Below are positions 1,953 through 23,428 of a DNA stretch of 64,000 nt, in pieces. Origin of the DNA: Candidatus Shapirobacteria bacterium. GTDB lineage: Bacteria > Patescibacteriota > Microgenomatia > UBA12405. Within the stretch, counting starts at the first letter, position 1; each line of letters starts with the position of its first letter. The notes below the pieces were generated by a model. That model ran no database searches. It saw only the letters and a list, made by a program, of their open reading frames with translations, and was not told the origin of the DNA. The stretch spans positions 8,521 to 72,520 of the forward strand of contig DPKG01000014.1 in assembly GCA_003542615.1 (NCBI GenBank). Direction: 5' to 3'. The translations under genes were made by a program, and so were the position numbers.

Positions 1953-2631
1953 GAAAAATTAATTAAACAAATTAATGGAGACAGGGCAGAAAAGAGATAT
2001 TTTAATGAGGTATTCTTTAACCAGCTATTTTCTGCAATTTCAGTTCCATTACTTGGAATTAACCCACAATTAAAGCAAATCACTTTATAAAATATACAAA
2101 GAATCTTTCAGTAACTCAGATTTGAAGATTATAGGAGGACATTTAGCATTAATACACAGGAAATGTCAGAAATATTCTAATGTTTGGCCACTAGGAATTT
2201 TAGAGAGATACAATATCATAGAAAAGTATTCAGAATTAATAACTAGTTCTAAAGAGAGAATCGCAAGTCCCAAGATTGGATTGACGCATGGTGATTACAG
2301 ACTTAGAAATATATTGAAAGATGAAGAAAAGATTTATATTTCAGATTGGGAGTTTGGTGGACTCAATTTTATTTATTGATATTTGGCTATATTTTGGGCA
2401 GATTTTCTTCACAATCAATTCCGTAATAATTATGGCCGTCTATATTTAATAAATTTTATTGAAGGTTATATGGGTAAGAATTATTTATCTGACGATAAGC
2501 TAAATTTTTCTCTTACATTGGGGGGAGTCGATGTAGTTTTTGATCATATTAGTCCAAGAGTTGGTGAAAAAAACCTGAGTCAAATATATTGTTTGAAAAT
2601 ATTACAAAGAAAGAGATTGACTTCTTATTAG
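1953..2631 (+). pseudogene. disrupted aminoglycoside/choline-kinase family phosphotransferase (APH fold)
   Basis: Fragments carry the Brenner-like motif 'LTHGDYRLRNIL' and 'SDWEFGG' (compare APH 'HGDLHPGNIL' and 'DWEFAG'). The N-terminal piece 1953-2090 ends in TAA. Pieces 2122-2379 and 2383-2631 share a frame and are separated by a single TGA. Multiple disruptions, so a pseudogene. Confidence 0.5.
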
Positions 2632-2658: not shown

Positions 2659-3723
2659 TTATAAATTACCAATGGCTATTGCCAATTGACGAACTTCTTC
2701 ATTATTTAATCGGCTAAACGGTTTACTCAAAATTTCCATTGGTAGACCGATTCTGGCAACTAAAGTACCAATTTCCCCAGTTAATTCGTTGTTCACACTT
2801 CTATGACCTACTGGTAATTTATTTAAATCAATAGCCATTCTTTTTAACTCAACATTTATTTGTCTCCTTTCATATCGGTGCGACAAGTCTTTCCTTAATT
2901 GTTTTCCCATCTCCGAACCCGAAGAAAATCCATTTAACACTTTGGCTAGGGTTAGACTTTCTTTTTGGCTTAAAATTATTCTCTTTCTCAATTGAAATCC
3001 GTACATTTTTCCATCTTCCGGATATTCTTTCGGTGACAATGAAATAACATCAGCGTCTGTTCTTGGTACCGGCCAAAAACTAGTTCGGGGAACATGAACA
3101 GTTCGATTGACATCAAATATTCCACAGATAAATGACAATCTAGTATATCGATCATCGTTTGGATTTCTCATGGTCATAATCGACGCCATATTGTCACCTA
3201 CTAATAATGTTATTCTTTCAATCTTATCGGATACGACAGACAAGGTTGTTAATAATGGTTCAGATATATTAAAAGGGATGTTTCCTATCACCTGATGTCT
3301 TGCTTCTCTGTCAATATTTAACCATTTTTTAAAATCAAAATTAAGGGCGTTCTGATTAACAATCTTAACATTATCAATACCTTTTAATATTTTTTCTTGT
3401 GCTTCAGCAAAATCAGGAAATATTTCCAATCCTATAACACTGCTAGCTCTTTTGGCAATTCCTTTAGTTATATTTCCAGGACCACACCCAATTTCCACCA
3501 CATCCGCACCCTCAATTGTTAAAGAGGCTACTGCTTTCACCATTGCCGGATCAACTAAAAAGTTTTGACCCAACTTTTCCACCGGTTCAAAATTCAACTC
3601 GTCTTTTAGTTGTTTTTCGCTTATAGGACTAAACGAATCTTCCTTTCTCATGACTCCCATTGTATAATAATATAGGTCATTTGTAAATACACAATTATTG
3701 AAAAATAGTTTATAATAAGCCAT
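2659..3723 (-). CDS. rRNA adenine N6,N6-dimethyltransferase family (KsgA/Dim1 or Erm-like)
   Basis: 'QNFLVD' motif, SAM motif I 'VVEIGCGPGNITK', 'NIPFNISEPLL'. About 50 aa longer than typical KsgA at the C-terminus. The annotated start codon overlaps the start of the divergent 3722 gene (CATG), so the true start is probably an internal Met near 3660. Confidence 0.75.
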   Translation of the reverse strand: MAYYKLFFNNCVFTNDLYYYTMGVMRKEDSFSPISEKQLKDELNFEPVEKLGQNFLVDPAMVKAVASLTIEGADVVEIGCGPGNITKGIAKRASSVIGLEIFPDFAEAQEKILKGIDNVKIVNQNALNFDFKKWLNIDREARHQVIGNIPFNISEPLLTTLSVVSDKIERITLLVGDNMASIMTMRNPNDDRYTRLSFICGIFDVNRTVHVPRTSFWPVPRTDADVISLSPKEYPEDGKMYGFQLRKRIILSQKESLTLAKVLNGFSSGSEMGKQLRKDLSHRYERRQINVELKRMAIDLNKLPVGHRSVNNELTGEIGTLVARIGLPMEILSKPFSRLNNEEVRQLAIAIGNL

Positions 3724-4672: not shown

Positions 4673-5006
4673 TTTCCCTTTTTTTCAACACTATGTTGCC
4701 AAATTAATTTTCACCAAAGAGGTGGAAATTAATGAAAAATTAACTGATCAAATTGCTAATTCATTGATTAAAAACCTTAGATTAAATGTGGTTAAACAAG
4801 GAAAACATCAGTTTACAAATAATGGTTTAACCAAATTTTGGATTTTATCCCAATCACATTTAGTTATCCACTCTTGGCCAGAAAATAACGCTCTTCACGT
4901 CGACTTAATGACCTGTAGTCCAATAGTCATTACTTCAAAAATTATTAAAGACTGTCTTTCTATATTTCCAATAAATGACATCTCTGTGACAAAGCTGAAA
5001 TATTAA
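4665..5006 (+). CDS. speH: S-adenosylmethionine decarboxylase proenzyme, small SpeH class
   Basis: 113 aa; 'SHLVIHSWPENNALHVDLMTCS' matches the AdoMetDC self-processing/active-site region (ESH...TWPE...D.FTC). Confidence 0.7.
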   Translation: MTNFPFFQHYVAKLIFTKEVEINEKLTDQIANSLIKNLRLNVVKQGKHQFTNNGLTKFWILSQSHLVIHSWPENNALHVDLMTCSPIVITSKIIKDCLSIFPINDISVTKLKY

Positions 5007-5048
5007 TCTTTTTTTATACAGTCTCATCAAATCTCATCAACAAACGGT

Positions 5049-5088
5049 GTTATAAGGATAGAAAGGTTCCAGACCCTAATGCTCCGCC
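5049..5088. repeat. conserved ~40-nt intergenic motif, copy 1 (GTTATAAGGATAGAAAGGTTCCAGACCC...CTCCGCC)
   Basis: About 30/38 identity to the copies at 9054 and 16131. Lies between the speH 3' end and a truncated HD-domain ORF. Confidence 0.6.
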
Positions 5089-5094
5089 AAAGGG

Positions 5095-5340
5095 TCAAAG
5101 TTCTATGCGGCCCACTTGGTGGCCAAGCATTGTCCTAACCTGTTGGTGTTTATTCCCTAATTTCAACATTTTTCGATTTAACGGCCTGTGATAGGTGAAT
5201 TTAGCAATTTTTTGGCAATAACTCATTACCCGTATTCCATGGTTTAATCGAAAGCCGTAGCCACCACCAAATTCCCAAACGTTTTGAAAAAGTTGTTTGT
5301 ATTCTGCTTTTAATTTACTTAATAATTCGGTATTTTCCAT
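5095..5340 (-). pseudogene. truncated HD-domain phosphohydrolase (N-terminal ~80 aa only)
   Basis: 'FRLNHGIRVMSYCQKIAK' resembles the first His region of HD domains. The ORF stops before the HD dyad; downstream sequence runs directly into motif copy 1. Confidence 0.4.
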
Positions 5341-5356
5341 ATGTTAAGATCATATC

Positions 5357-5971
5357 ATGAAAGTCTATTTTGTCCGCCATGGTTCCACCGATTCTTTGGA
5401 AAAGAAAATCAGTCAACCGAATGATGAGCCACTAAATCAAAAAGGTCTTAATCAAGCGAAAGGGCTGGCAGAAAGATTTGCAAAAACACAATTAGACTTG
5501 ATTGTTTCGAGTTCTCATCTTCGGGCAGTTCAAACAGCCAAAGCCATAAATGAGGAAATCCAGATTAGTGAATTATTCGTCGAAGTACGAAAACCTAGTG
5601 AGGTAATCGGTCGATCAAAAGAGGATGGAGAAATAAAAGTAATTCTTCAAAGGATAAGTGAAATGTACACCAAAAATCCTAATTGGCATTATTCGGATGA
5701 AGAGAATTTTGAAGATTTGAAAAAGCGGGGAATGCAGGCTTTGGAGTTTTTGAAATCACAGAACAAAGAAAATATTTTAGTAGTTTCTCATGGTCACTTT
5801 GTGGCCTTATTATTAGGGCTGATGTTATTTGGGAAAGAATTTCCGGTTGAGGCAGCTTTACTATTCAGAAATTTTTTTAGATTTGGCAATACCGGAGTGT
5901 CTATTTGTAAATATGAGGATAATAAATGGAAACTGCAGTGTTGGAATGACACATCACACTTACTGGAGTAA
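5357..5971 (+). CDS. histidine phosphatase superfamily protein (phosphoglycerate-mutase-like)
   Basis: N-terminal 'VYFVRHGST' (RHG catalytic motif); C-terminal 'VVSHGHF' second His motif. Confidence 0.7.
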   Translation: MKVYFVRHGSTDSLEKKISQPNDEPLNQKGLNQAKGLAERFAKTQLDLIVSSSHLRAVQTAKAINEEIQISELFVEVRKPSEVIGRSKEDGEIKVILQRISEMYTKNPNWHYSDEENFEDLKKRGMQALEFLKSQNKENILVVSHGHFVALLLGLMLFGKEFPVEAALLFRNFFRFGNTGVSICKYEDNKWKLQCWNDTSHLLE

Positions 5972-5975
5972 GGAT

Positions 5976-6497
5976 TCAAAAAAAATCTTTGGCATGTTTC
6001 GTTAATTGTTCAAAGTCGTCATAGTCATGAGTATTATTACCGGTATTTTTTATCAGATGATAATCAGCTGGGTTATTTTCTTTAAGGACCTTTACGAGAT
6101 CAGCAAAACTAAATAAAAAATCAAACTCATTTTGAATAAACATGGCGGGAATAGTCAATGACTTTAAATAATCATTGATGGGGAAGTTCATTTCTTTGGC
6201 TAAATTATATGGATGGCCGCAAATTATTATCTTTTTGGGACTAATTATTTTTTCATAAATACTTTTTAGAGCCAGAACTGAACCGATGGACTTGGCAAAG
6301 ACAAAATAATCTCTTTTGTCTTTAAGCAACTCTGTTAATTTTTCCGATTCTTTTTGAAGATTTATCCATTTGTCTCCGGTTTGCCAGTGATCGTAATACA
6401 GAATTTGACCGTCTGAAAATTTATCAAATTCTGCTTTAACTTCTTCAATCCAGATTTTATTATTTAGGCTATTACCGGCGAGATAAATGATGTGCAT
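5976..6497 (-). CDS. alpha/beta-hydrolase-like protein (YqiA/esterase-like), hypothetical
   Basis: 173 aa; 'IIYLAGNS' N-terminus and 'AKSIGS' near-nucleophile-elbow. Weak. Confidence 0.3.
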   Translation of the reverse strand: MHIIYLAGNSLNNKIWIEEVKAEFDKFSDGQILYYDHWQTGDKWINLQKESEKLTELLKDKRDYFVFAKSIGSVLALKSIYEKIISPKKIIICGHPYNLAKEMNFPINDYLKSLTIPAMFIQNEFDFLFSFADLVKVLKENNPADYHLIKNTGNNTHDYDDFEQLTKHAKDFF

Positions 6498-6633
6498 TTA
6501 TAGGGTAATTATATACTAGATTCGGTAAAGTATAGTTTGAGTAACAAACTTGTTTAATTTAGATCATCGTTTTAATACACTCCTTTAAACGGTGTTATAA
6601 AACCATCAAACTTCCACCTACAAGTTCAAGTTT

Positions 6634-6789
6634 TTAGTAGTCGGTACCGGTAAAAGGACATTCCCCATATTGATTGGATGGACCGGTAGAATTTTCACCC
6701 ACTAACTGATCCCCGCCTGCAAGTACGGACTGGGCAGAAAAAATAAAAACAACTGAAAATATGAACAAGGACAATATAATTTTTTTCAT
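6634..6789 (-). CDS. small secreted peptide precursor (51 aa), not in ORF track
   Basis: Manual translation gives MKKIILSLFIFSVVFIFSAQSVLA|GGDQLVGENSTGPSNQYGECPFTGTDY: a signal peptide followed by a 27-aa Gly/Thr-rich peptide. Sits in an otherwise unexplained 430-nt intergenic gap. Confidence 0.3.
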   Translation of the reverse strand: MKKIILSLFIFSVVFIFSAQSVLAGGDQLVGENSTGPSNQYGECPFTGTDY

Positions 6790-6927
6790 AAAATAAAAAT
6801 TAATAAGCTACTATTAATACGAAAAGGTAAAGGTTTTATTACAAATAGAAAATTGACTGGAAAAATTGCTTTAGGAGAAAGTTGATTTATTCGTATGGTA
6901 TTGTAACAATAGTTTACAATACCTAAT

Positions 6928-7557
6928 ATGGCTATAAGAAAAAAACTAATCAAAAGACTTAAAAGAATACAGGAGGAATTGAATATTCCCCATATTCCAA
7001 TTACGAGACTGGAAAATCTCAGTATTGAAACCAGAAAAGCCTTTGATGAATCAATCAAATACTTGATGGTTAAGCGCGGTTTGTTTAAAAAAGTTAAGGT
7101 AAGACGGGATTATTTGAAACTATGGCGTCACAGAGAGAATCAGATAGTTTTGCCGATTAACTGGCGATATATTTTGAGCATACCCTTTATTTATGGGATG
7201 ATTGTGCCGGCAATTGTGTGGAATTTAGGACTGGAAATTTATCATCAAATTTGTTTCCGGCTTTATGGAATTCCACTGGTTGATGCGGAAAAATACTTTA
7301 TTTATGACCGACAATTAATGTCATATTTAAACTGGTGGGAAAAAATAAATTGTTATTATTGTTCGTATGTAAACAACCTGATTAGTTACAGTTCTGAAAT
7401 TGGCGGAAGAACCGAGCGTTATTGGTGTCCGATTAAATATTTCAGACGGGTAAATAATGCCCATTCTCAATATCCGAAATTTATTGACGGGAAAAACAAA
7501 GATGAGATTTATGAAAAGTGGGGTTTGCTTCGTAATTTTTCTGATATTGATAAATAG
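6928..7557 (+). CDS. hypothetical membrane protein
   Basis: 209 aa, two predicted TM segments, Cys cluster 'CYYCSY...C'. No family recognised. Confidence 0.4.
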   Translation: MAIRKKLIKRLKRIQEELNIPHIPITRLENLSIETRKAFDESIKYLMVKRGLFKKVKVRRDYLKLWRHRENQIVLPINWRYILSIPFIYGMIVPAIVWNLGLEIYHQICFRLYGIPLVDAEKYFIYDRQLMSYLNWWEKINCYYCSYVNNLISYSSEIGGRTERYWCPIKYFRRVNNAHSQYPKFIDGKNKDEIYEKWGLLRNFSDIDK

Positions 7558-7591
7558 AGAGACGGTGACAGTGGATTAAAATATTGATAAG

Positions 7592-8155
7592 ATGATAGTA
7601 ATGAATGATGAGGAGAAAAAAGTAAATCCAACAGAAGAAATAACCGATGACGGGATGGAGGAAAAAGTATTAATGGTTTGGGAAGCGGCTGAGAGAGCGT
7701 TTAAGAGAAGGGATAGGGATTTTTGGATAACGGCTATTGCGATATTGGTATTAGTGGGAGTGATATTTTTTATGATTGGAGAATTTTTTCTGGTGATTGC
7801 ACTGGCATCGATTTTATTTTTGGCATATGTACTTTCGACGGTACCTCCGGAGAATGTGGTCTGTAAAATTACAAATAGGGGGATATATTTCGGAGATTCG
7901 CATTATGGTTGGGACTTGTTGGAAAGGTTTTGGTTTAAAAAATCTTTGGATAGTGACGCGGTATTTTTTGAGACTAGGTTGAGATTTCCCAGACAGGTAT
8001 CGATGATAATCGATAAGTCAAGTGAAGAGAAAATTAAAGAAATTGTTATAAAGAGAATTCCGATGATGGAAAGTTCACCTTCAACAGTTGATAAGCTGAC
8101 CAATTGGTTTGCCCAAAGATTGCCTTTGGAGGATAGAAAGGAAAAATCCGAATAA
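7592..8155 (+). CDS. hypothetical membrane protein
   Basis: 187 aa with a central double-TM hairpin. Confidence 0.4.
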   Translation: MIVMNDEEKKVNPTEEITDDGMEEKVLMVWEAAERAFKRRDRDFWITAIAILVLVGVIFFMIGEFFLVIALASILFLAYVLSTVPPENVVCKITNRGIYFGDSHYGWDLLERFWFKKSLDSDAVFFETRLRFPRQVSMIIDKSSEEKIKEIVIKRIPMMESSPSTVDKLTNWFAQRLPLEDRKEKSE

Positions 8156-8197
8156 AGAAGAAATTGAAGGATTTTTGAGGTATAATTCAACATTATT

Positions 8198-8269
8198 GCG
8201 CCCATAGTTTAATGGATAGAATAGCGGTTTGCGGAACCGTTGATCCGGGTTCGATTCCTGGTGGGCGCA
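8198..8269 (+). tRNA. tRNA-Arg (anticodon read as GCG; anticodon assignment uncertain)
   Basis: 72 nt cloverleaf: acceptor GCGCCCA/TGGGCGC, T-arm CCGGGTTCGATTCCTGG. The D-arm is nearly identical to the tRNA-Arg(CCG) at 13100. Anticodon loop TTGCGGA. A TATAAT box lies at about 8181. Confidence 0.65.
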
Positions 8270-8299
8270 CATATTAAAGCCATTGTTTTGGTGAATTTT

Positions 8300-8383
8300 G
8301 GAGGGTTGGCCGAGTGGTTTATGGCGCACGCTTCGAAAGCGTGTGGGCGAAAGCCCGCAGAGGTTCAAATCCTCTACCCTCCG
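8300..8383 (+). tRNA. tRNA-Ser (anticodon CGA)
   Basis: Acceptor GGAGGGT/ACCCTCC, anticodon loop TTCGAAA, long variable arm TGGGCGAAAGCCCGC, T-arm GAGGTTCAAATCCTC. No encoded CCA. Confidence 0.8.
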
Positions 8384-8388
8384 CTAAA

Positions 8389-9060
8389 ATGATAAATCTA
8401 AAAGATAAACTTTCCCACATCATTACTTCAAGGCCAGATGTAATTCAGTTTGCCAAAGACAGGAAGTATGAAGAGGCATGGATTATTAAATTAAGTGACA
8501 AAAAGCCAACTGAAGTAGACATTGAAAGATATTTAAAAAAAGACAAGTTTGAAACGATAATTGTTGAATATATTTGGAATTCCCAAGACGATAATAATCG
8601 GTTTGTTTTGACTTTGTTTCTTGACAAAAAATGTAAACTTCAGGACCCAAAGAAATTTATCGAGATATCGTTAGATCTTTTCTATACTTATTCTAATTTC
8701 GAGGATTTTTTGAACATTATTGATAATCAGATTATTGGATCGGAATATTTACTGTTAAATCAAACTGACTCGATAAATTTAGGTGTTTTTAATTATTGGC
8801 TGTCGGTAGGACCAGTTGATCTATGGAGTAAAAAAGAAATATATGACTTTGAAAAAATTAAATCAAAAATAAAAACACGACCGGAAATTGAAAGAACAGA
8901 TCTAAACTATCAAGGATTGTTGTTTAGGTTTAACGTAAGTGGAATTCTTGATGGTCCTTATTATGGAATTAAAACCCCGTGTTGTAACAAAATTGGAAAT
9001 GATTGGGTGATAGACTTTGATAAAGTTGAATATTGGACTAAATTGATGTTAGGGATATAA
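8389..9060 (+). CDS. hypothetical protein (224 aa) directly abutting tRNA-Ser(CGA)
   Basis: The track ORF 8314-9060 has a false N-terminus that translates the tRNA. The first ATG is 5 nt after the tRNA 3' end. No recognisable domain. Confidence 0.45.
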   Translation: MINLKDKLSHIITSRPDVIQFAKDRKYEEAWIIKLSDKKPTEVDIERYLKKDKFETIIVEYIWNSQDDNNRFVLTLFLDKKCKLQDPKKFIEISLDLFYTYSNFEDFLNIIDNQIIGSEYLLLNQTDSINLGVFNYWLSVGPVDLWSKKEIYDFEKIKSKIKTRPEIERTDLNYQGLLFRFNVSGILDGPYYGIKTPCCNKIGNDWVIDFDKVEYWTKLMLGI

Positions 9061-9092
9061 GGATAGAAAAGTTCCAAACTCATCTACTCCGC
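9054..9092. repeat. conserved ~40-nt motif, copy 2
   Basis: GATATAAGGATAGAAAAGTTCCAAACTCATCTACTCCGC; overlaps the stop codon of the 8389-9060 gene. Confidence 0.6.
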
Positions 9093-9123
9093 AATAATTT
9101 ATAAAATAAATATAAAAGTATAT

Positions 9124-10407
9124 ATGCAGAAGAAAAAGGGTAATTTCATTATTATGGTATTGGTAATTTTAACTTTGAGTTTGTATTTATTGTCGAAAGC
9201 TGATTTGAAAATATTGTGGAGATATCCCTGGTTGAGCGTAAGTCAGATGATGTCTTTGGTGGGAGTGGTGTTGCTGTCTTTTACTTTTGTATTGGGGAGT
9301 AGGTCGAAGTTTTTGGAAAATTGGTTTGGAGGTTTGGATGAGGTAAATAAAAAACACCAGAGACTTGGTAAAATTTCATATTTTTTATTGTTACTTCATC
9401 CATTATTGCTGGCAGTAAACGTATTACCAAATGTTAAGGCGGCAACTAATTTTTTATATTTATCCCAAAATAACGTATATAACTTTGGAGTATTGGCTTT
9501 ATATTTGATGACAGCAGTGTTGTTTTTGACATTGGTGACAAATTTGCCTTATCACATCTGGATAGTGAGTCATGATTTTATGGGTTTGGTGCTACTTTTG
9601 GGAATTTTTCATGTGTTTTTGGTTGAAAGTGATGTGTCTCATTATTTACCTTTAAGGGGGTGGATACTTTTTATGTTGGGAACGGGGTTTTATTTTTATA
9701 TTTATAAAGTATTTTTATATAAATGGTTGGGGCCAAAACATGAATATTTGGTTAAAAGAGTAAAAAAAATCGGGGATATTTTGGAGATATATTTGGAGGC
9801 AAAATCAAAACCGATAGCTTTTTTCCCCGGTCAATTTGTCTATTTGAGTTTTGATGATCCGGAATTAAGAGAGGCGCATCCTTTTACTTTTTCTTCGTCG
9901 CCTGATAATAAAATCGTGCGTTTTTCCGTGAAAATATTGGGTGATTATACTTCGAAATTGAAAAAATTGGTGCCGGGAACAAAAGCAGTAATTTGGGGAG
10001 CGCATGGAAGGATGTATCAGGGGTTTTATGCAAATAAGGAGGTGGTGTGTATTGCCGGAGGAATAGGGATTACACCATTTTTGAGTTTGTTGGAATACGA
10101 AATAAACCATCCAAAAAAGAGAAAGATTGATTTGTTTTATAGTGTAAAATCAAAAAACGAGGCGGTATATGACCGGGAATTAGAGGAATGGGAAAATAGA
10201 TTGGAGAGATTTATTTATCATCCAAATTTTGGTGATTCAAAACCAAGATTAACTATGGCAAAAATTAAAAAGACTATCGGATCGGTAGAAAATAAACGGT
10301 TTTACCTGTGCGGTCCGACATCAATGATGAAGAGTATGATAAAACAATTAAAAAATATTGGGGTAAAGAATAATTCGATAATATTTGAGGATTTCAATTT
10401 TAAATAA
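9124..10407 (+). CDS. NOX/ferric-reductase family flavocytochrome (bacterial NADPH-oxidase homolog)
   Basis: N-terminal polytopic TM domain with conserved His-containing helices, FAD-binding 'HPFTFSSSP', NAD(P)-binding 'CIAGGIGITPFLSLL'. 427 aa, typical size for bacterial NOX. Confidence 0.7.
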   Translation: MQKKKGNFIIMVLVILTLSLYLLSKADLKILWRYPWLSVSQMMSLVGVVLLSFTFVLGSRSKFLENWFGGLDEVNKKHQRLGKISYFLLLLHPLLLAVNVLPNVKAATNFLYLSQNNVYNFGVLALYLMTAVLFLTLVTNLPYHIWIVSHDFMGLVLLLGIFHVFLVESDVSHYLPLRGWILFMLGTGFYFYIYKVFLYKWLGPKHEYLVKRVKKIGDILEIYLEAKSKPIAFFPGQFVYLSFDDPELREAHPFTFSSSPDNKIVRFSVKILGDYTSKLKKLVPGTKAVIWGAHGRMYQGFYANKEVVCIAGGIGITPFLSLLEYEINHPKKRKIDLFYSVKSKNEAVYDRELEEWENRLERFIYHPNFGDSKPRLTMAKIKKTIGSVENKRFYLCGPTSMMKSMIKQLKNIGVKNNSIIFEDFNFK

Positions 10408-10447
10408 TTAGCAGTAGTTGACATAGACTGCTAATAATACTAAAATA

Positions 10448-13048
10448 ATGAGTATGCAGCAACCTCAGTTTACCCAACTGGCCAGTGAAACTATTCAGAG
10501 GGCAATAGATTTGGCCAGCAAAAACAAAAATCCAAGTACGGAGGAAATTCATCTATTGAAGGCTTTGGCGGATATAGACGGAGTTTCCCGGGAAATTATT
10601 AAAAAAATCAGTGATAGCGTAGAAAATGTGGAAAAAGATTTGGAAGCAAGAATAGACCAATTACCGATAGTCGAGGGCAGTAACGAAAGCGTGTCGATAT
10701 CGGTCCAATTGCAGAGGATTATGCAAAAAGTAGTGGAAGAAAGTCAGAAGTTGGGTGATTCGTATATTTCGCAGGAAATGCTGTTGTGGAGTCTGGCAGA
10801 AAACGGAAGTGATGAAATAAAAAATATTTTAAAACAAAATAAATTGGAGAGTTCCATTATTAAAAAAGAAATATTAGAATTAAGAGGAGGTAAAAAAGTG
10901 GATTCGGAAAGTAAAGAAAATACCTATAAATCGCTGGATAAATATACAACCGACCTGACAGCGTTGGCTGAGATGGGTAAATTGGATCCGGTAATTGGCA
11001 GGGAAGAGGAAATCAGAAGGGTAATGCAGGTATTGTCGAGAAGAACGAAAAATAATCCGGTTTTGGTGGGAGATCCGGGGGTAGGAAAAACAGCAATTGC
11101 GGAAGGATTGGCCAACAGAATAATGAGCGGAGATGTACCGGAATCATTAAAGAATAAAAAACTATTATCTTTGGAAATATCGTCACTTTTGGCAGGAGCC
11201 AAATTTAGGGGAGAGTTTGAAGAAAGGTTAAAGACAGTGATTGATGAAGTAGTAAAGGCGGAAGGTAAGGTAATTTTGTTTATTGATGAACTGCATACTA
11301 TTGTGGGAGCCGGCGGAGCGGAAGGATCGGTGGATGCCAGCAATATGCTTAAACCCGGGTTGGCCAGAGGAACACTGAGAGTGATTGGAGCAACAACTAT
11401 GGGTGAATACCGAAAATATGTGGAAAAAGATCCGGCTTTGGAAAGAAGATTTCAACCAATAATGGTAGATGAGCCAAGTGTAGATAGCACAATTTCAATA
11501 TTGAGAGGCTTGAAGGAAAAATATGAGGTACATCATGGGATAAAAATTACTGATACGGCATTGGTGGCAGCGGCAAAATTATCGAATAGATATATAAGAG
11601 ATCGGTATTTACCCGATAAAGCCATCGATTTGGTCGATGAAGCGGCTTCGGGATTACGGATACAGATGGAATCCAGTCCTTCCGAAATTGATATTTTGGA
11701 AAGAAAAACCAGACAATTGGAAATAGAGGAAAAGGCTTTGAAGAAAGAAGGGACTGCGGCAACTAAAGACAGATTGAAGGAAGTTGAGGCAGAACTAGCT
11801 TTTCAAAAGGAAAAATTGAAAGGAGAAAAAAGTAAGTGGCAAAAACAAAAAAAGTTGTTAAATAATGTTCAGGAATTTAGAAGTGAGGTAGACAAACTAA
11901 AACTGGAGTTAGAAAAGGTGGAAAGAGAGGTAAAACTGGATAGGGCGGCGGAAATAAAATACGGAAAGTTACCGGAAGTGATGAAAAAACTGGAAGAGGC
12001 GGAAAAAGTGTGGAATGAAATCCCTGAGGATGAAAAATTGGTCAGACAGGAGGTAGGCGAAAGCGATATCGCGGCGGTGGTGTCAAAATGGACAGGGATA
12101 CCGGTCAATAGATTGCTAAAAGCTGAGACAGCAAAATTAAAAACCTTGGAGGAATTTATCGGCAGAAGAGTTATCGGACAGGATGAAGTAGTTAGGGCAG
12201 TAGCAAACGCGATTAGAAGGTCAAGACTGCATTTGAGTGAAACTGGCAGACCAGTAGCGGTATTTATGTTTTTGGGACCGACAGGTGTGGGTAAAACTGA
12301 AACGGCTAAGGCCTTGGCGGAACAGCTTTTTAGTGATGAAAAGGCGATGATAAGAATTGATATGTCGGAATATACGGAAGCCCATACTGTGGCCAGATTG
12401 ATAGGATCGCCCCCGGGATATGTTGGTTATGATGAAGGAGGGCAATTGACCGAATCGGTAAGAAGAAAACCATATTCGGTGATTCTTTTGGATGAAATTG
12501 AAAAAGCTCATCCGCAAATATTTGGGGTGTTTTTACAGGTATTTGATGAAGGAAGATTGACCGATGGTAAGGGCAGAACGGTGGATTTTACCAATACGGT
12601 AATAATTATGACTTCGAATATCGGCGCAGAAATTATCCAATTATATGCGGGTGATAAGAAAAAAGAATCCAAAAAAATGGAAACGGAAGTATTTGATTTG
12701 GTCAGATCAACCTTTAAGCCGGAGTTTTTGAACAGAATTGATCAAATAATTTTGTTTGAATCATTAAGTAAGGAGCAGTTGGAAAAAATTGTGGATAATC
12801 AGCTTCAAAGAGTGATTGAAAGATTAAAGGAACAAGAAGTTATTTTGACAGTAACGGAAAAAGCGAAGAAGTATTTGGCGGAAAAAGGTTTTGATCCAAT
12901 TTTTGGAGCCAGACCATTGCAAAGATTGATACAGAGTGAAGTATTAGATAAAATCGCGATGTTGTTGTTGGATAAAGAAGAGACTGAGGAGGCAGCAATT
13001 ATTGTGGATTTACGGGGAAATGAGTTGGTGGCGAGTTTGATGAACTAG
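10448..13048 (+). CDS. clpB: ATP-dependent chaperone ClpB
   Basis: 866 aa: Clp N-domain; NBD1 Walker A 'GDPGVGKTAIAEG'; long coiled-coil middle domain; NBD2 'GPTGVGKTETAKALA'; sensor-2 region. Confidence 0.95.
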   Translation: MSMQQPQFTQLASETIQRAIDLASKNKNPSTEEIHLLKALADIDGVSREIIKKISDSVENVEKDLEARIDQLPIVEGSNESVSISVQLQRIMQKVVEESQKLGDSYISQEMLLWSLAENGSDEIKNILKQNKLESSIIKKEILELRGGKKVDSESKENTYKSLDKYTTDLTALAEMGKLDPVIGREEEIRRVMQVLSRRTKNNPVLVGDPGVGKTAIAEGLANRIMSGDVPESLKNKKLLSLEISSLLAGAKFRGEFEERLKTVIDEVVKAEGKVILFIDELHTIVGAGGAEGSVDASNMLKPGLARGTLRVIGATTMGEYRKYVEKDPALERRFQPIMVDEPSVDSTISILRGLKEKYEVHHGIKITDTALVAAAKLSNRYIRDRYLPDKAIDLVDEAASGLRIQMESSPSEIDILERKTRQLEIEEKALKKEGTAATKDRLKEVEAELAFQKEKLKGEKSKWQKQKKLLNNVQEFRSEVDKLKLELEKVEREVKLDRAAEIKYGKLPEVMKKLEEAEKVWNEIPEDEKLVRQEVGESDIAAVVSKWTGIPVNRLLKAETAKLKTLEEFIGRRVIGQDEVVRAVANAIRRSRLHLSETGRPVAVFMFLGPTGVGKTETAKALAEQLFSDEKAMIRIDMSEYTEAHTVARLIGSPPGYVGYDEGGQLTESVRRKPYSVILLDEIEKAHPQIFGVFLQVFDEGRLTDGKGRTVDFTNTVIIMTSNIGAEIIQLYAGDKKKESKKMETEVFDLVRSTFKPEFLNRIDQIILFESLSKEQLEKIVDNQLQRVIERLKEQEVILTVTEKAKKYLAEKGFDPIFGARPLQRLIQSEVLDKIAMLLLDKEETEEAAIIVDLRGNELVASLMN

Positions 13049-13099: not shown

Positions 13100-13171
13100 G
13101 TGCCCGTAGTTAAATGGATAGAATTCTCCCCTCCGAAGGGAGTGATGTGGGTTCAAGTCCCACCGGGCATA
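13100..13171 (+). tRNA. tRNA-Arg (anticodon CCG)
   Basis: Acceptor GTGCCCG/CGGGCAT, anticodon stem CTCCC/GGGAG with loop CTCCGAA, T-arm GTGGGTTCAAGTCCCAC. Confidence 0.8.
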
Positions 13172-13209
13172 CTTTTTTCAGTTTTGTTTTAAAATTTAAA
13201 ATAAAAATT

Positions 13210-14226
13210 ATGGGAAGTAATAAAAGTGCAGCAATAAATACAGGAGAAGATTTTAAAAAAGTAAAGGATTTGAGAGGACGGGAGAAAAATATTATTGACG
13301 ATATTTACAGGGAAACAGGATTTGAGATTGGTGAATTGATATGGAGTTCGGATTATTTTGGATCCGGGGTAGTTGGGGCTGTGACTTATAGGGGAAAATA
13401 TAAGAATAAAAAAGCAGTACTAAAAATCCAAGGAGCAAAGCCGGCAATATCGGAGGTGGAGATGATTGAAAGTTTCGAAAAACAGAATAAAAGCAAATTA
13501 ATTAGGACACCGAAAATATTTTGGCGAAAAAAGTGGAATGACAAAAGTCAATATGAGGCCATAATTATGGAGGAAATATGGGGGAACAAAATTGTAGAGG
13601 AAGGAAAGATAAGCGGAAAAGAAAATATAAAAGAATTTTTTGATATTTATCGTGAGTATAGGGATAAATGTATAAGAAAACCGTGGTTGGGAAAAGAGAA
13701 AAACAAAGAAAAGATTGGAGAGATGATAGAAAAAGCTTGGCAGTTAAGTTTGAAGATAAAACCGGAATCCCCTTTTCGTAGAGGTAGTAATAAAGAATTG
13801 GCATCTACAGCGGCAAGTTTGCTGGAAAAAACTTGGGGAGAGACAGAAAAAGAATTTGTGCACGGTCATTTGTCGGTGAATGATATAAAAAAGCAAGGAA
13901 GTGAGGTAATTATTTTTTCGAATTTGTTTTGGAAGTGGAAATATCCTTTTTATGATGCGGTATTTGGCTATCATTGGCAAATTTATTCTCTACATAAAAT
14001 TGCAGGGATTGGTCCGGAATTAATTGAAGAACAAAGAAATTTGTGGCTGGAAGAAATTTATAAGTTGGGAGATAGAAAATTAATCGGTGCGGCCTTGCTG
14101 GAAAGAGCAATAGCCGGTTTATTGCTGGATAGTTTTGCCTATATTGACAGTAATAATCCGGTGGCAGGATATTTGGTGGAGGCGACTAGAGCTGAAGTTA
14201 AAAGATTGATTAAAGAATTAGAGTAA
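13210..14226 (+). CDS. hypothetical protein, possibly kinase-like fold
   Basis: The track ORF 13114-14226 starts inside the tRNA; internal Met 'MGSNKS' at 13210 is used. 'FVHGHLSVNDI' weakly resembles an APH/protein-kinase catalytic loop. Unverified. Confidence 0.35.
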   Translation: MGSNKSAAINTGEDFKKVKDLRGREKNIIDDIYRETGFEIGELIWSSDYFGSGVVGAVTYRGKYKNKKAVLKIQGAKPAISEVEMIESFEKQNKSKLIRTPKIFWRKKWNDKSQYEAIIMEEIWGNKIVEEGKISGKENIKEFFDIYREYRDKCIRKPWLGKEKNKEKIGEMIEKAWQLSLKIKPESPFRRGSNKELASTAASLLEKTWGETEKEFVHGHLSVNDIKKQGSEVIIFSNLFWKWKYPFYDAVFGYHWQIYSLHKIAGIGPELIEEQRNLWLEEIYKLGDRKLIGAALLERAIAGLLLDSFAYIDSNNPVAGYLVEATRAEVKRLIKELE

Positions 14227-14827: not shown

Positions 14828-14915
14828 TGAGTGAGTAAGATTTATAACTATAATAGTTTAACATTTTTGGAAAACCAATAAAAAGAGAGCGGATTTTAAA
14901 GGTATAATATGTAAG

Positions 14916-15398: not shown

Positions 15399-15405
15399 GA
15401 CACTT

Positions 15406-15492
15406 AGGAGGGGTCGGATAGTGGTTCATTCCACACGCTTGGAAAGCGTGCGCTGTAAAAAGCTCGCGGGTTCGAATCCCGCCCCCTCCGCC
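15406..15492 (+). tRNA. tRNA-Ser (anticodon GGA), CCA encoded
   Basis: Acceptor GGAGGGG/CCCCTCC, anticodon loop CTTGGAA, long variable arm, T-arm GCGGGTTCGAATCCCGC, 3' GCCA. Confidence 0.8.
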
Positions 15493-16131
15493 ATGCCAAA
15501 TAAAGATGTCTGGGAAATTACAAGTGCAATAATTCTTTCCTTTGGTGGCTCCAGCGTAATCTTGATTGGGTTAAGCACTTGGTTGGGTAAAGTGTGGGCA
15601 AACAGATTACTCGAAAAAGACAGGCTCAAATACAATTCTGAACTTGAAACAACAAAGGCAAAATATGAAAAACAGTTGGAAACATACAAACTCCAGCTTG
15701 AGAAATCCAAATCTTTGTTCTTTAGGTATTCTGAACATCAGTTCACCCTCTATAACGAATTATGGAGGCTTCTTTATAAGTTGAAGTTATTAGTAAATGA
15801 ATTGTGGGACCAGGCAAATTTTAAAAATTTAAGAGCATTTGCTCTTCACTTTGAAAAGACTATCGACTCTGTTGAAAAGCACAGCTTACTAATTGAGGAT
15901 AAACATCACGATAAGTTAAATGCAATTTTTAACACTCTCAACAAATTTAAAGTCAATAAAGAAACTATTGTTAAACTAAAAGATATAAAGGAAGAGGATA
16001 TCAAGCCAGACCACAATTCAGACACTATTCCTCGTTATGTTGCACAAAATAATGAATCAAAAAAACAGTTTGAAGCTCTACTTAAAATACTCGAGAGAGA
16101 TTTTAAGAAGCAAATTCGAGTGACTGGGTAG
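15493..16131 (+). CDS. hypothetical membrane-anchored coiled-coil protein directly abutting tRNA-Ser(GGA)
   Basis: The track ORF 15421-16131 has a false N-terminus covering the tRNA. The ATG overlaps the encoded CCA end of the tRNA (start within ~1 nt of 15492). N-terminal TM helix then a Lys/Glu-rich helical region. Confidence 0.45.
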   Translation: MPNKDVWEITSAIILSFGGSSVILIGLSTWLGKVWANRLLEKDRLKYNSELETTKAKYEKQLETYKLQLEKSKSLFFRYSEHQFTLYNELWRLLYKLKLLVNELWDQANFKNLRAFALHFEKTIDSVEKHSLLIEDKHHDKLNAIFNTLNKFKVNKETIVKLKDIKEEDIKPDHNSDTIPRYVAQNNESKKQFEALLKILERDFKKQIRVTG

Positions 16132-16170
16132 TTATAAGGGTAGAAAGGATCCAGACCCACCTACCCCGCC
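16131..16170. repeat. conserved ~40-nt motif, copy 3
   Basis: GTTATAAGGGTAGAAAGGATCCAGACCCACCTACCCCGCC; contains the inverted repeat GGGTAG...CTACCC; overlaps the stop codon of the preceding gene. Confidence 0.6.
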
Positions 16171-21969: not shown

Positions 21970-22011
21970 TGGTGCCTCCTAGTTAATTAATAAAGAGTTT
22001 GATAGTGTTTG

Positions 22012-22146: not shown

Positions 22147-22164
22147 AATTGTTGTTTTGCCTCC

Positions 22165-22896: not shown

Positions 22897-22898
22897 AT

Positions 22899-23054: not shown

Positions 23055-23070
23055 AAATTTGAATTAAATT

Positions 23071-23384: not shown

Positions 23385-23428
23385 ATAAGGAATCTTAAAT
23401 ATAAAACGACAAAAGTTCAAGTAGCAAA

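What the first reader, a model, noticed from the sequence alone, without database searches (positions are those of the whole stretch)
8300..9092. tRNA-Ser(CGA) + protein gene starting 5 nt after the tRNA + conserved 40-nt 3' motif
The first ATG of the downstream gene (8389) lies 5 nt after the tRNA discriminator base. That leaves no space for a promoter or Shine-Dalgarno sequence, which implies co-transcription with the tRNA and a near-leaderless mRNA after RNase P/Z processing (a tRNA-punctuation-like arrangement). The gene ends inside a ~40-nt motif that recurs at 5049 and 16131. The same architecture is repeated at the second tRNA-Ser (next finding). The ORF-finder output here is misleading because it fuses the tRNA into the ORF.
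Basis: seen in the sequence. Interest (0 to 1): 0.6.

Follow-up and report, generated by a model that had tools for sequence, protein, structure and literature searches.

The report
Gene cassettes docked behind tRNA-Ser genes
The gene that starts 5 bases after a serine tRNA is part of a 708-base insertable cassette, closed by a conserved 40-base repeat resembling the tRNA's own end, and similar cassettes sit behind serine tRNA genes in many related ultra-small (CPR) bacteria.

Summary
tRNA-Ser(CGA) ends at G8383, the conserved start codon of a 223-aa ORF is at 8389, and a ~40-nt motif overlaps its stop and recurs at 5049 and 16131. The adjacency comes from insertion, not from an evolved punctuation design. 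A close relative (L019, identical tRNA) has tRNA…CTCCGC|AATAATTTA… running straight into the ferric-reductase-like gene. The window carries 708 extra bases (8385-9092) that end in a second CTCCGC. About 60 motif copies from more than 40 Microgenomates contigs show the same layout: tRNA-Ser, then 1-3 variable genes, then a co-oriented motif (24/24), often in arrays. The same ORF families sit behind different tRNA-Ser isoacceptors, or behind a motif that has its own promoter module. The motif's 3' half resembles the tRNA-Ser T-loop-to-3'-end sequence; its 5' half is nearly invariant. No integrase was found; small GIY-YIG nuclease genes recur at these sites. Shine-Dalgarno (SD) sequences are absent from this genome and leaderless-type promoters are common. 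Read-through from the tRNA promoter and a 5-nt-leader mRNA after RNase Z cleavage are therefore plausible but untested. I rate it a new variant of tRNA-anchored islands or integron-like cassettes. The mobilising enzyme is unknown.

The parts
8181..8186 (+). TATAAT -10-like box 11 nt upstream of tRNA-Arg(GCG). Probable promoter of the tRNA-Arg / tRNA-Ser / ORF1 transcription unit.
   Evidence: Read from the sequence. No terminator-like site lies between it and ORF1. Function is inferred.
8198..8270 (+). tRNA-Arg(GCG)
   Evidence: 63.8 bits. The tRNA-Arg(GCG) then tRNA-Ser(CGA) pairing recurs in L009, L016, L029, L038, L039, L041, L043, L046 and L059.
8300..8383 (+). tRNA-Ser(CGA). Discriminator is G8383; no CCA is encoded.
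   Evidence: Identical in sequence to the tRNA-Ser(CGA) of L019.
8379..8384 (+). Left copy of the 6-bp direct repeat CTCCGC (tRNA 3' end plus 1 nt). Left junction of the insertion.
   Evidence: Empty-site alignment.
8385..9092 (+). 708-bp cassette (4-nt spacer TAAA, ORF1, motif). Absent from the syntenic loci L019, L016 and L056.
8389..9060 (+). ORF1: 223 aa, function unknown, conserved family in Microgenomates. Some homologues outside the CPR carry signal-peptide-like N-terminal extensions.
   Evidence: No Pfam, PADLOC or PHROG hit. AlphaFold2 (AF2) model has pLDDT 92.6 but no convincing fold match.
9054..9092 (+). Motif copy (GATATAAGGATAGAAAAGTTCCAAACTCATCTACTCCGC). It overlaps the ORF1 stop codon and ends in the right copy of CTCCGC (9087-9092).
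9093..10407 (+). Conserved chromosomal flank and ferric-reductase-like gene (ATG 9124), with its own TATAAA box 9111-9116, 7 nt before the ATG. In L019, L016 and L056 this flank follows the tRNA-Ser(CGA) directly.
15407..15493 (+). tRNA-Ser(GGA) with encoded CCA (15491-15493).
15493..16131 (+). ORF2: 212 aa, N-terminal TM helix plus coiled-coil-like region, function unknown. Its ATG overlaps A76 of the encoded CCA. Second cassette gene.
   Evidence: Homologues in L059 and L061 sit behind a promoter-bearing motif instead of a tRNA and are again followed by a motif.
16131..16170 (+). Motif copy (GTTATAAGGGTAGAAAGGATCCAGACCCACCTACCCCGCC) directly after the ORF2 stop.
5049..5088 (+). Motif copy preceded by a decayed promoter module (-10 box deleted). 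It is followed from 5089 to about 5200 by a flank that in other genomes directly follows tRNA-Ser(GCT).

Best explanation
ORF1 (8389-9060) and ORF2 (15493-16131) are promoter-less single-gene cassettes docked at the 3' ends of tRNA-Ser genes. Each cassette consists of the ORF plus a ~40-nt terminal site.

The terminal site has two halves. The 5' half (GTTATAAGGAYAGAAAGGTTCCAGAC) is nearly invariant. The 3' half resembles the T-loop-to-3'-end of tRNA-Ser and always ends in CTCCGC(C).

Insertion, or the reverse deletion, takes place at the shared CTCCGC core. The tRNA therefore stays intact, the cassette's first codon lands 0-30 nt behind the tRNA, and the motif marks the distal boundary next to the old chromosomal flank. 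Genuine tRNA-Ser 3' ends and motif copies are interchangeable docking points, so arrays build up (tRNA or promoter-motif platform, ORF, motif, ORF, motif).

Expression of the window's ORF1 is inferred to be by read-through from the tRNA-Arg/tRNA-Ser promoter. RNase Z cleavage after G8383 would leave an mRNA with a 5-nt leader. That suits a genome that lacks SD sequences and is rich in leaderless-type promoters.

Shown here: the insertion polymorphism, the boundaries, the array architecture and the portability of cassettes. Inferred: site-specific recombination, the enzyme (unknown; small GIY-YIG nucleases are the only recurrent candidate), and the transcription/processing steps.
For: 1. Empty versus occupied site. 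L019 has a tRNA-Ser(CGA) identical to the window's, followed by ...CCCTCCGC|AATAATTTAGAAAA...ATG of the ferric-reductase-like gene; L016 and L056 have the equivalent junction (...CCCTCCGC|ACTAATTTAG...). The window has the same left and right sequences separated by 8385-9092, which ends ...CTACTCCGC.

2. Portability of ORF1. Its homologues sit behind:
- tRNA-Ser(CGA) in L062 (30-nt spacer, motif over the stop) and in L008;
- a tRNA-Ser(GGA) in P0002, whose N-terminal extension is the translated tRNA;
- an exact 18-nt copy of the tRNA-Ser(TGA) 3' end in L009, and a decayed copy in L007;
- a motif-like element in L001.

3. Portability of ORF2. It sits behind tRNA-Ser(GGA) in the window but behind a promoter-bearing motif in L059 and L061, and is followed by a motif each time.

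4. Census. About 60 motif copies come from 4 genome contigs and 43 metagenome contigs. All 24 copies that have a tRNA-Ser upstream in the locus are co-oriented with it, and 29 of 50 tRNAs in 393 kb of motif loci are tRNA-Ser. Arrays of the form platform-motif, ORF, motif occur in L010, L026, L033, L039, L049 and L059.

5. Equivalence of the two kinds of end. The same flank follows tRNA-Ser(GCT) in 6 loci and the motif in 7, including window 5049. The same GC-rich mini-insert follows both kinds of end.

6. tRNA resemblance. The L053 motif 3' half GGTTCCAGACCCACCTCCTCCGC matches the tRNA-Ser(GGA) sequence GGTTCGAATCCCACCTCCTCCGC at 20 of 23 positions.

7. DNA-level logic. Cassette genes lie in either orientation while the motif keeps the tRNA's orientation (L010, L029).

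8. Expression context. SD is absent, leaderless-type -10 spacing is common, no terminator lies between the promoter and ORF1, and three of the four tRNAs in the window lack an encoded CCA, which implies RNase Z-type 3' processing (established knowledge).
Against: - No tyrosine or serine recombinase was detected. Probes were XerD, lambda Int and gamma-delta resolvase, run with phmmer on 732 ORFs from the window and the loci fetched by then (L001-L058). Pfam on 10 mid-size window ORFs also found none. The probes were few and CPR enzymes may be too divergent. The mobilising activity is therefore unknown.
- Only one clean empty-site comparison exists for the window's own cassettes; none was found for ORF2. 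Deletion between the two CTCCGC repeats in the L019 lineage explains the polymorphism equally well.
- The distance from the core to the ATG varies within a cassette family: -1, 22 and about 45 nt for ORF2; 0-30 nt for ORF1. Left boundaries are therefore not rigid.
- Many motif copies carry an upstream promoter module and a covarying stem around the invariant core. This suggests a transcribed, possibly RNA-level role that the recombination model does not require.
- The motif 3' half does not track the local tRNA isoacceptor, so it is not a simple displaced tRNA fragment.
Confidence: 0.6

Rival explanations
1. tRNA punctuation by design. The tRNA-Ser and the tRNA-like 40-nt motif are RNA processing signals. 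RNase Z/P would cut a polycistronic transcript at them and release leaderless mRNAs with defined 5' and 3' ends. The motif travels with genes because it is their 3' processing or stability element.
For: - ATGs lie 0-6 nt behind a tRNA-Ser 3' end or a copy of it in the window (both cassettes), L009, L007, L034 and L040.
- The genome lacks SD and favours leaderless starts.
- The motif can fold into a small stem-loop: 94.6% of cells paired against 54% or less when slid, with 2 compensatory pairs.
- Promoter-bearing copies show a covarying outer stem and often end in GCCA, like discriminator plus CCA.
Against: - The motif is not recognised by the tRNA covariance model or any Rfam family, even at E<=10.
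- Its T-arm-like stem is 2-4 bp, and covariation is minimal.
- The motif keeps the tRNA's orientation even when the enclosed genes are on the other strand (L010, L029). That does not fit a gene-expression signal.
- The spacing is not conserved: L062 has 30 nt with its own promoter, L008 has 24 nt.
- For ORF2 the ATG shares its A with the encoded CCA, so a clean cut after CCA would destroy the start codon.
- This view does not explain the insertion polymorphism, although it is compatible with it.
Confidence: 0.2
2. The motif is an independent cis-regulatory leader or small RNA: a promoter module, a ~60-nt hairpin and a variable downstream hairpin that re-pairs with CTCCGCC, i.e. riboswitch- or attenuator-like. 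It is scattered through a compact, rearrangement-prone genome region. Its closeness to tRNA-Ser and to ORF ends would reflect only genome compaction and shared ancestry with a decayed tRNA-Ser gene.
For: - 28 distinct copies carry a conserved ~90-nt upstream module with a TGgTAGAAT box 7-10 nt before a covarying stem.
- Several copies are followed by sequences complementary to GCTCCGCC (L027, L031, L042, L049).
- Genes usually start 25-45 nt downstream on the same strand.
Against: - The downstream genes are functionally unrelated: GIY-YIG, His phosphatase, ferric reductase, UDG-like, PNP, membrane proteins. That is unlike a riboswitch regulon.
- Copies without the promoter module sit on stop codons of upstream ORFs.
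- Strict co-orientation with upstream tRNA-Ser (24/24) and shared flanks with tRNA-Ser ends are not predicted by this view.
- The window's copies at 9054 and 16131 have no promoter module, and the 5049 copy has lost the -10 box.
Confidence: 0.12
3. Remnants of ordinary integrase-carrying islands or prophages. Classical tRNA-targeting elements integrated into tRNA-Ser and then decayed. They left single genes and displaced tRNA 3' fragments, and no special cassette system exists.
For: - Direct repeats of tRNA 3' ends mark island ends in classical systems (PMC4383910 abstract; tycheposon preprint).
- Exact or near-exact tRNA 3' end copies occur in L009 and L034.
Against: - The motif's invariant 16-26-nt 5' part is not tRNA sequence. 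It is shared by cassettes with unrelated cargo in different candidate phyla-level lineages (Shapiro-, Woesebacteria and others).
- No integrase or integrase fragment was seen in about 390 kb.
- Units are mostly single ORFs of 0.4-1.7 kb.
- The motif 3' half differs from the local tRNA (14/23 at 9054-9092), whereas the tRNA itself is identical between empty and occupied sites.
Confidence: 0.08

Closest known systems
tRNA/tmRNA-gene-integrated genomic islands (as catalogued by Islander; tyrosine-integrase elements)
   Same: The anchor is the 3' end of a tRNA gene, the tRNA remains intact, and a co-oriented partial tRNA-like repeat marks the far end. There is presence/absence polymorphism with exact boundaries (PMC4383910 abstract).
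   Different: No integrase was found in or near the units. Units are single promoter-less ORFs. The distal repeat is not the displaced native fragment but a conserved chimeric site (invariant non-tRNA half plus tRNA-like half), and identity with the tRNA is limited to about 6 bp at the junction.
Tycheposons and tRNA-seeded flexible islands of Prochlorococcus (bioRxiv 10.1101/2020.12.28.424599)
   Same: The host genomes are streamlined. Islands grow by successive insertions at the same tRNA, partial tRNAs are scattered through the island, and cargo genes have mixed metabolic functions.
   Different: Tycheposons carry tyrosine recombinases and replication modules and are kilobases long. Here the units are cassette-sized, the repeat has its own conserved sequence, and a dedicated promoter-plus-motif platform exists away from tRNAs.
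Integrons (intI, Pc, attI, attC cassettes)
   Same: Mostly promoter-less single-ORF cassettes, each ending in a recombination-site-like element, stacked in arrays behind a platform that supplies a promoter. ORFs start a few nucleotides after the junction.
   Different: No IntI was found next to the platform. The motif lacks the attC architecture (R''-L''/L'-R' imperfect palindrome of 57-141 nt). The docking site is a tRNA-Ser 3' end or something that resembles one.
Mitochondrial tRNA punctuation and plant-mitochondrial t-elements
   Same: A coding sequence abuts a tRNA. Endonucleolytic tRNA processing would create a (near-)leaderless mRNA, and a tRNA-like element sits at the other end of the mRNA.
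   Different: The arrangement is restricted to tRNA-Ser loci and arose by insertion. Spacing is not conserved (0-30 nt), the element is not tRNA-like enough for covariance models, and processing is untested.
Free-standing GIY-YIG homing endonucleases of the Seg type (e.g. T4 SegB in the phage tRNA gene cluster; PMC2988022, PMC13096335 listed; the placement of SegB is from my own knowledge)
   Same: Small GIY-YIG genes (PF01541) are inserted, with presence/absence polymorphism, directly after motif copies or directly before tRNA-Ser genes. One is flanked by a 17-nt duplicate of the tRNA 5' end.
   Different: The proteins are only 80-100 aa (catalytic domain only, no recognisable DNA-binding domain). 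No cleavage data exist. The window's two cassettes carry no GIY-YIG gene; the only one in the window is 47 kb away, at 63013-63255.

Membership tests
tRNA-integrated genomic island (Islander definition) | Intact (regenerated) tRNA gene at one end | tested here: met
   tRNA-Ser(CGA) 8300-8383 scores 57.5 bits and tRNA-Ser(GGA) scores 53.9 bits.
tRNA-integrated genomic island (Islander definition) | Displaced fragment of the same tRNA gene as a direct repeat at the other end | tested here: inconclusive
   The co-oriented motif ends in the same CTCCGC, but only 14/23 positions match the local tRNA 3' end (own count). The motif 3' half does not track the isoacceptor. L053 matches at 20/23, and exact copies occur in L009 and L034.
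tRNA-integrated genomic island (Islander definition) | Tyrosine (or serine) integrase encoded in the island | tested here: not met
   No phmmer hit (E<=10) to XerD, lambda Int or gamma-delta resolvase among 732 ORFs of the window plus the loci fetched by then (L001-L058). Pfam on cassette ORFs and 10 window ORFs found no recombinase. Sensitivity is limited.
tRNA-integrated genomic island (Islander definition) | Empty site in a relative with the precise boundary at the tRNA end | tested here: met
   Alignment of the window with L019, L016 and L056; flank clustering.
Integron | intI integrase adjacent to attI and a Pc promoter | tested here: not met
   Genes upstream of the promoter-motif platforms are heterogeneous and none matched recombinase probes. 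A promoter-like module is present.
Integron | attC sites: 57-141-nt imperfect palindromes with R''/L''-L'/R' cores (GTTRRRY) | tested here: not met
   The motif is about 40 nt and not palindromic. Only a short internal stem-loop is possible.
Integron | Arrays of promoter-less single-ORF cassettes, each with its own terminal site | tested here: met
   L010, L016, L026, L033, L039, L049, L059 and L061.
tRNA punctuation (mitochondrial type) | mRNA flanked by tRNAs or tRNA-like structures that RNase P/Z recognise | tested here: inconclusive
   The 5' side is a genuine tRNA. The 3' motif is not detected by the tRNA covariance model even with lax thresholds. Cleavage cannot be tested here.
tRNA punctuation (mitochondrial type) | Endonucleolytic processing generates the mature mRNA ends | not testable with these tools
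   Needs 5'/3' end mapping or in vitro RNase Z/P assays.
tRNA punctuation (mitochondrial type) | Translation of leaderless or near-leaderless mRNAs is the organism's normal mode | tested here: met
   This is indirect. SD-like 4-mers occur upstream of 4/58 genes (background 9.5%). A TAnAAT box ends 4-14 nt before the start in 19/53 genes (background 2.6%).
Free-standing GIY-YIG homing endonuclease element | GIY-YIG ORF inside the mobile unit | tested here: not met
   The window cassettes encode only ORF1 or ORF2, with no Pfam hit. GIY-YIG genes occupy equivalent positions in L009, L010, L017, L020, L027, L033, L046, L054 and L063.
Intrinsic terminator | GC-rich hairpin followed by a T-run | tested here: not met
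   The scan finds none at 9054-9092. Folding z-scores are +0.67, -1.33 and -0.17.
Any Rfam RNA family | Covariance-model match | tested here: not met
   Only the tRNAs reach the gathering score. Nothing meaningful appears at E<=10.

The most novel reading that the evidence does not exclude
Microgenomates (CPR) bacteria possess an integron-like gene-cassette system that works without an integron integrase.
- A ~40-nt site resembling the tRNA-Ser 3' end and the 3' ends of genuine tRNA-Ser genes are interchangeable docking sites.
- Cassettes are captured behind a tRNA promoter or a dedicated promoter platform and expressed as near-leaderless mRNAs released by tRNA-processing enzymes.
- Movement is driven by the small GIY-YIG nucleases that recur at these sites, through break-induced copying between tRNA-like repeats, or by an as-yet unrecognised recombinase.
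Probability: 0.2. Interest if true: 0.85.

Novelty: new variant of a known kind. Interest (0 to 1): 0.6.

Why it matters
- **Gene exchange in CPR bacteria.** CPR bacteria have tiny, streamlined genomes and few recognisable mobile elements, so how they exchange accessory genes is poorly understood. A compact cassette system anchored on tRNA-Ser genes would be a concrete mechanism for strain-level gene-content variation in this group. The conserved 40-nt site could be searched for directly in metagenomes.
- **Annotation errors.** In at least five contigs here, 25-60 codons of a tRNA or tRNA fragment are fused onto the downstream protein (P0001, P0002, P0048, P0068, P0108, P0121). Gene callers that assume SD-led starts will also mis-handle this leaderless-type genome.
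- **tRNA and mRNA maturation.** If the tRNA-to-ORF read-through is real, these loci are natural test cases for coupling between tRNA 3' processing and mRNA 5'-end formation in bacteria. ORF2 is an especially sharp case, because its ATG shares a base with the encoded CCA.

Tried and rejected
- **Chance repeat.** Rejected: 0 matches expected, 3 found.
- **Known RNA family.** Rfam at gathering threshold on the window and 16 loci, and lax E<=10 scans of three regions, returned only tRNAs and noise.
- **Terminator.** There is no T-run and folding energies are unremarkable.
- **Simple displaced tRNA fragment.** Rejected as the whole story. The 5' half is not tRNA sequence, and the 3' half differs from the local tRNA while the tRNA is identical in empty and occupied sites.
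- **Integrase search.** Pfam on 30 proteins found no recombinase.
- **Function of ORF1.**
  - Pfam, PADLOC and PHROGs gave nothing.
  - The AF2 model is confident (pLDDT 92.6), but Foldseek against the PDB gave E>0.4.
- **Function of ORF2.** Only a weak hit to an unknown PHROG.
- **Promoter module as the tRNA-Ser(GGA) promoter next to an orthologous NUDIX gene.** The two NUDIX families share only the NUDIX box, so I dropped this idea. The 14-nt similarity GGTA[AG]AATAAGACA upstream of the window's tRNA-Ser(GGA) remains unexplained.
- **Correlation of the motif 3' half with the upstream isoacceptor.** None is apparent.
- **Literature.** Searches for a prior description (CPR + GIY-YIG + tRNA; Microgenomates + island + integrase; integron + tRNA-Ser) found nothing specific.
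Full report
**Observation**

The window matches Candidatus Shapirobacteria GW2011_GWE2_38_30, a CPR/Microgenomates bacterium: the ORF product is 100% identical to P0001. ARAGORN and Rfam place tRNA-Ser(CGA) at 8300-8383/4. The acceptor stem pairs 8300-8306 with 8376-8382, the discriminator is G8383, and no CCA is encoded. The first ATG downstream is 8389-8391, 5 nt after the discriminator. The frame stays open to TAA 9058-9060.

The ORF finder and the public annotation both start the protein at GTG 8314, inside the tRNA (248 aa). Most of the 120 listed homologues (128 in total) are 219-228 aa. The N-terminus of a 41-sequence alignment (MxxLKxxLSxxIT…) lines up with Met-8389. The start is therefore real and the fusion is an artefact.

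The ~40-nt motif occurs exactly three times in the window (5049, 9054, 16131), always on the + strand, with 0 matches expected by chance.

The second case is tighter still. tRNA-Ser(GGA) at 15407-15490 is followed by an encoded CCA, and the ATG of the next ORF (15493) uses the A of that CCA. That start is conserved in homologues.

**What the adjacency really is**

The decisive result is an empty-site comparison.
- Contig L019 has a tRNA-Ser(CGA) identical to the window's and the same neighbours: His-phosphatase, c26, c0, tRNA-Arg(GCG), tRNA-Ser(CGA), ferric-reductase-like gene.
- There the tRNA end …CCCTCCGC is followed at once by AATAATTTAGAAAA…TATATG, the start of the ferric-reductase-like gene.
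- In the window the same two sequences are separated by 8385-9092 (708 bp): TAAA, ORF1, and the motif, whose last six bases repeat CTCCGC.
- L016 and L056 show the same empty arrangement.

ORF1 plus motif is therefore a discrete unit bounded by a 6-bp direct repeat. It was inserted in this lineage or precisely deleted in the others.

**The unit is portable**

ORF1 homologues lie in several contexts:
- behind tRNA-Ser(CGA) with a 30-nt spacer, with the motif again overlapping the stop codon (L062, 66% identity);
- behind tRNA-Ser(CGA) with a 24-nt spacer (L008);
- behind a tRNA-Ser(GGA) (P0002, 76% identity, whose N-terminal 'extension' is the translated tRNA including the GGA anticodon loop);
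- directly behind an exact 18-nt copy of the tRNA-Ser(TGA) 3' end (L009), or a decayed copy of it (L007);
- behind a motif-like element one gene away from tRNA-Ser(GGA) (L001);
- 2.7 kb downstream of tRNA-Ser(GGA) (L063).

Two more distant homologues (Roizmanbacteria, Dojkabacteria) have ordinary contexts.

ORF2 homologues sit behind a promoter-bearing motif copy instead of a tRNA, and are again followed by a motif (L059 at 72% identity, L061 at 64%).

**The motif family**

Pattern scans recovered 4 genuine copies in species-representative genomes (Woesebacteria and unnamed MAGs) and 43 metagenome contigs, about 60 copies in all. The consensus is GTTATAAGGAYAGAAAGGTTCCARACYC-N5-CTCCGCC(A).

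The 3' half resembles the T-loop-to-3'-end of tRNA-Ser. L053 has GGTTCCAGACCCACCTCCTCCGC against tRNA-Ser(GGA) GGTTCGAATCCCACCTCCTCCGC, 20 of 23 positions. The GGATAG…GGTTC part recalls the tRNA-Ser(GGA) D-loop (GGATAGTGGTTC). A tRNA-Ser-derived origin is likely but is an inference.

Two flavours exist.
- Copies directly on or after the stop codon of a + strand ORF. These include the window's 9054 and 16131 copies.
- Copies preceded by a conserved ~90-nt module. The module has an inverted repeat with a T-run, two TGTCTCATT repeats and a TGgTAGAAT -10-like box. A variable 5' strand pairs with the motif's 3' part, with clear covariation between subfamilies: TTGGGG/CCCCAA, TATGGGT/ACCCATA, AGGGT/ACCCT.

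The window's 5049 copy is of the second kind, but the -10 region is deleted.

**Architecture across loci**

- Wherever a tRNA-Ser lies upstream in the same locus, the motif is co-oriented with it (24 of 24), at distances of 0.5-10 kb.
- 29 of the 50 tRNAs in 393 kb of motif-selected DNA are tRNA-Ser.
- Arrays of the form platform-motif, ORF, motif (sometimes with a further ORF and motif) occur in L010, L016, L026, L033, L039, L049, L059 and L061.
- The enclosed genes can be on either strand (L010, L029) while the motif keeps the tRNA's orientation. This points to DNA-level logic rather than expression logic.
- tRNA-Ser ends and motif ends are interchangeable. The flank that follows window 5049 (AAAGGGTCAAAGTTCTATGCG…) directly follows tRNA-Ser(GCT) in six other contigs and follows the motif in seven, the window's 5049 copy included. 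A GC-rich mini-insert is found after both kinds of end.
- Cargo is miscellaneous: NUDIX, LD-carboxypeptidase, nucleoside phosphorylase-like, HD domain, acetyltransferase, membrane proteins and unknowns.

**Mechanism**

What is shown is a cassette-like unit with a conserved terminal site, docked at a CTCCGC core shared with tRNA-Ser 3' ends. It is polymorphic between close relatives and found behind different isoacceptors.

What moves it is not shown.
- No tyrosine or serine recombinase was detected in the window or in the loci fetched by then (L001-L058), nor by Pfam on 30 proteins. The probe set was small.
- The only nuclease-type genes that recur at these sites are 80-100-aa GIY-YIG proteins (PF01541).
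- They sit directly after promoter-bearing motifs in L017, L020, L027, L046/51 and L054. Otherwise equivalent motif-flank junctions lack them (window 5049, L026, L028, L037, L039, L041, L057).
- They also sit directly before tRNA-Ser genes in L009, L010 and L063. In L010 the insertion is flanked by a 17-nt duplicate of the tRNA 5' end. L062 has what looks like a GIY-YIG remnant after the motif (by eye).
- A nuclease-stimulated copy mechanism between tRNA-like repeats is therefore a candidate, and an unseen trans-acting recombinase is another. I hold either only weakly.

**Expression**

- The only promoter-like box upstream is TATAAT 8181-8186, before tRNA-Arg. No terminator-like site intervenes.
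- The genome does not use Shine-Dalgarno sequences: 4 of 58 genes, below background.
- A TAnAAT box ends 4-14 nt (mode 5-7) before 36% of start codons, against a 2.6% background. This indicates widespread leaderless transcription.
- Three of the four tRNA genes in the window lack CCA. By established knowledge of tRNA maturation this implies RNase Z cleavage after the discriminator. Here that would leave CUAAA-AUG….
- The tight spacing is nevertheless not conserved. L062 keeps a 30-nt spacer with its own TATAAT 7 nt before the ATG.
- For ORF2, cleavage after the encoded CCA would remove the A of the start codon. tRNA and mRNA may then be alternative products, or cleavage occurs after G15490 and CCA is re-added.
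- None of this can be tested with the tools at hand.

**RNA-level role of the motif**

A small fold is compatible with the 35 distinct copies: GGAYA…UR(C)UCC enclosing GGUU-CCA-GACC. In it 94.6% of cells pair, against 54% or less when the partner is slid, but only two pairs show compensatory change. The window's 9054 copy happens to carry the double change AGUU-CCA-AACU. No Rfam family, including tRNA, matches even at E<=10. The fold is possible but unproven.

**The proteins**

ORF1 gives a confident AF2 model (pLDDT 92.6) with no informative structural neighbour and no Pfam, PADLOC or PHROG match. Homologues from GC-richer organisms carry signal-peptide-like N-termini.

ORF2 has an N-terminal TM helix followed by a helical region. 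Homologues reach Paenibacillus and Vibrio. Both functions remain unknown.

**Comparison with known systems**

- The nearest concepts are tRNA-integrated genomic islands (PMC4383910) and the tRNA-seeded island-building tycheposons of Prochlorococcus (10.1101/2020.12.28.424599).
- In layout the loci also resemble integrons.
- The loci fail the integrase criterion of the first two. For integrons they fail both the intI and the attC criteria.
- They differ from all of these in having a dedicated chimeric ~40-nt site and a stand-alone promoter-plus-site platform.
- Literature searches found no description of this element.

**Verdict**

The best explanation is cassette insertion at the tRNA-Ser 3' end, with a tRNA-Ser-like boundary site (confidence 0.6). 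I rate it a new variant of a known kind, with interest 0.6.

Noticed in passing
window, genome-wide (e.g. 3708-3721, 14899-14915, 9111-9123): The genome seems to lack Shine-Dalgarno sequences (4/58 genes). It has TAnAAT boxes ending 5-7 nt before many start codons (19/53 genes against a 2.6% background). Leaderless mRNAs therefore look like the default.
   Followed up: partly
window 63013-63255 (-): An 80-aa stand-alone GIY-YIG protein (PF01541, E 3.6e-19). It belongs to the same small-nuclease family that recurs next to motif copies and tRNA-Ser genes in related contigs.
   Followed up: partly
window 5089-5356: About 110 nt after the 5049 motif (AAAGGGTCAAAGTTCTATGCGGCCC…CCTAACCTGTTGGTGTTTATTC…CCTGTGATA) is conserved across many contigs, where it follows either tRNA-Ser(GCT) or a motif. 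It contains a GGGTC…GACCC hairpin and promoter-like boxes. An 81-aa minus-strand ORF (5095-5340) clusters with 216-220-aa proteins elsewhere and may be a gene fragment.
   Followed up: partly
window 13100-13172 and 13114-14226: The ORF finder also fuses tRNA-Arg(CCG) onto the next ORF. The real start is ATG 13210, 38 nt after the tRNA, so there is no tight junction here. The 338-aa product has no credible Pfam match.
   Followed up: yes
L016, L020, L023, L031, L033, L041, L042, L045, L053 (directly after CTCCGC(C) of motifs or tRNA-Ser genes): Two families of GC-rich, hairpin-forming mini-inserts (TACGCTCGCTGAAGCTCGCCCCGGCGGACAAAGTCCGCC and TTTACCCGCCATGGCGAAGCGACGG…) sit exactly at the same junction point in AT-rich genomes. 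They may be a miniature mobile element that uses the same target.
   Followed up: no
L046 1010-1160 / L051 3361-3485: Four tandem copies of a 27-nt unit (agaattgcatgccacattcccaagttt) lie between a promoter-bearing motif and a GIY-YIG gene.
   Followed up: no
L010 5700-5825: A 17-nt duplicate of the tRNA-Ser(GGA) 5' end (GGAGGAGTTGCCTAGTG), followed by a repeated GC-rich hairpin, precedes a GIY-YIG gene that itself abuts the intact tRNA. tRNA-Ser genes may therefore also be invaded at the D-loop.
   Followed up: partly
L019 versus window 5000-10500: Besides ORF1, the two syntenic regions differ by several other whole-gene indels: a 112-aa ORF between tRNA-Arg and tRNA-Ser, a 500-aa c2 membrane protein, and MetK plus a 113-aa ORF after the motif. 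The whole neighbourhood is a hot spot of gene-sized variation.
   Followed up: no
window 15376-15406: The 14 nt upstream of tRNA-Ser(GGA) (GGTAAAATAAGACA) nearly match the -10 region of the motif's promoter module (GGTAGAATAAGACA). The link between the module and a tRNA-Ser(GGA) promoter is unexplained.
   Followed up: partly
window 2122-2631 and 21811-23420: Two adjacent 82-85-aa ORFs match one 237-aa protein in L035, so this may be a split or frameshifted gene. Separately, three small paralogous minus-strand ORFs form a local cluster.
   Followed up: no
P0073, P0074, P0080-P0103 (ORF1 homologues): Homologues from GC-richer, apparently non-CPR organisms carry hydrophobic signal-peptide-like N-terminal extensions. 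The family may therefore be extracytoplasmic outside the CPR. A KTPCC motif is invariant.
   Followed up: no
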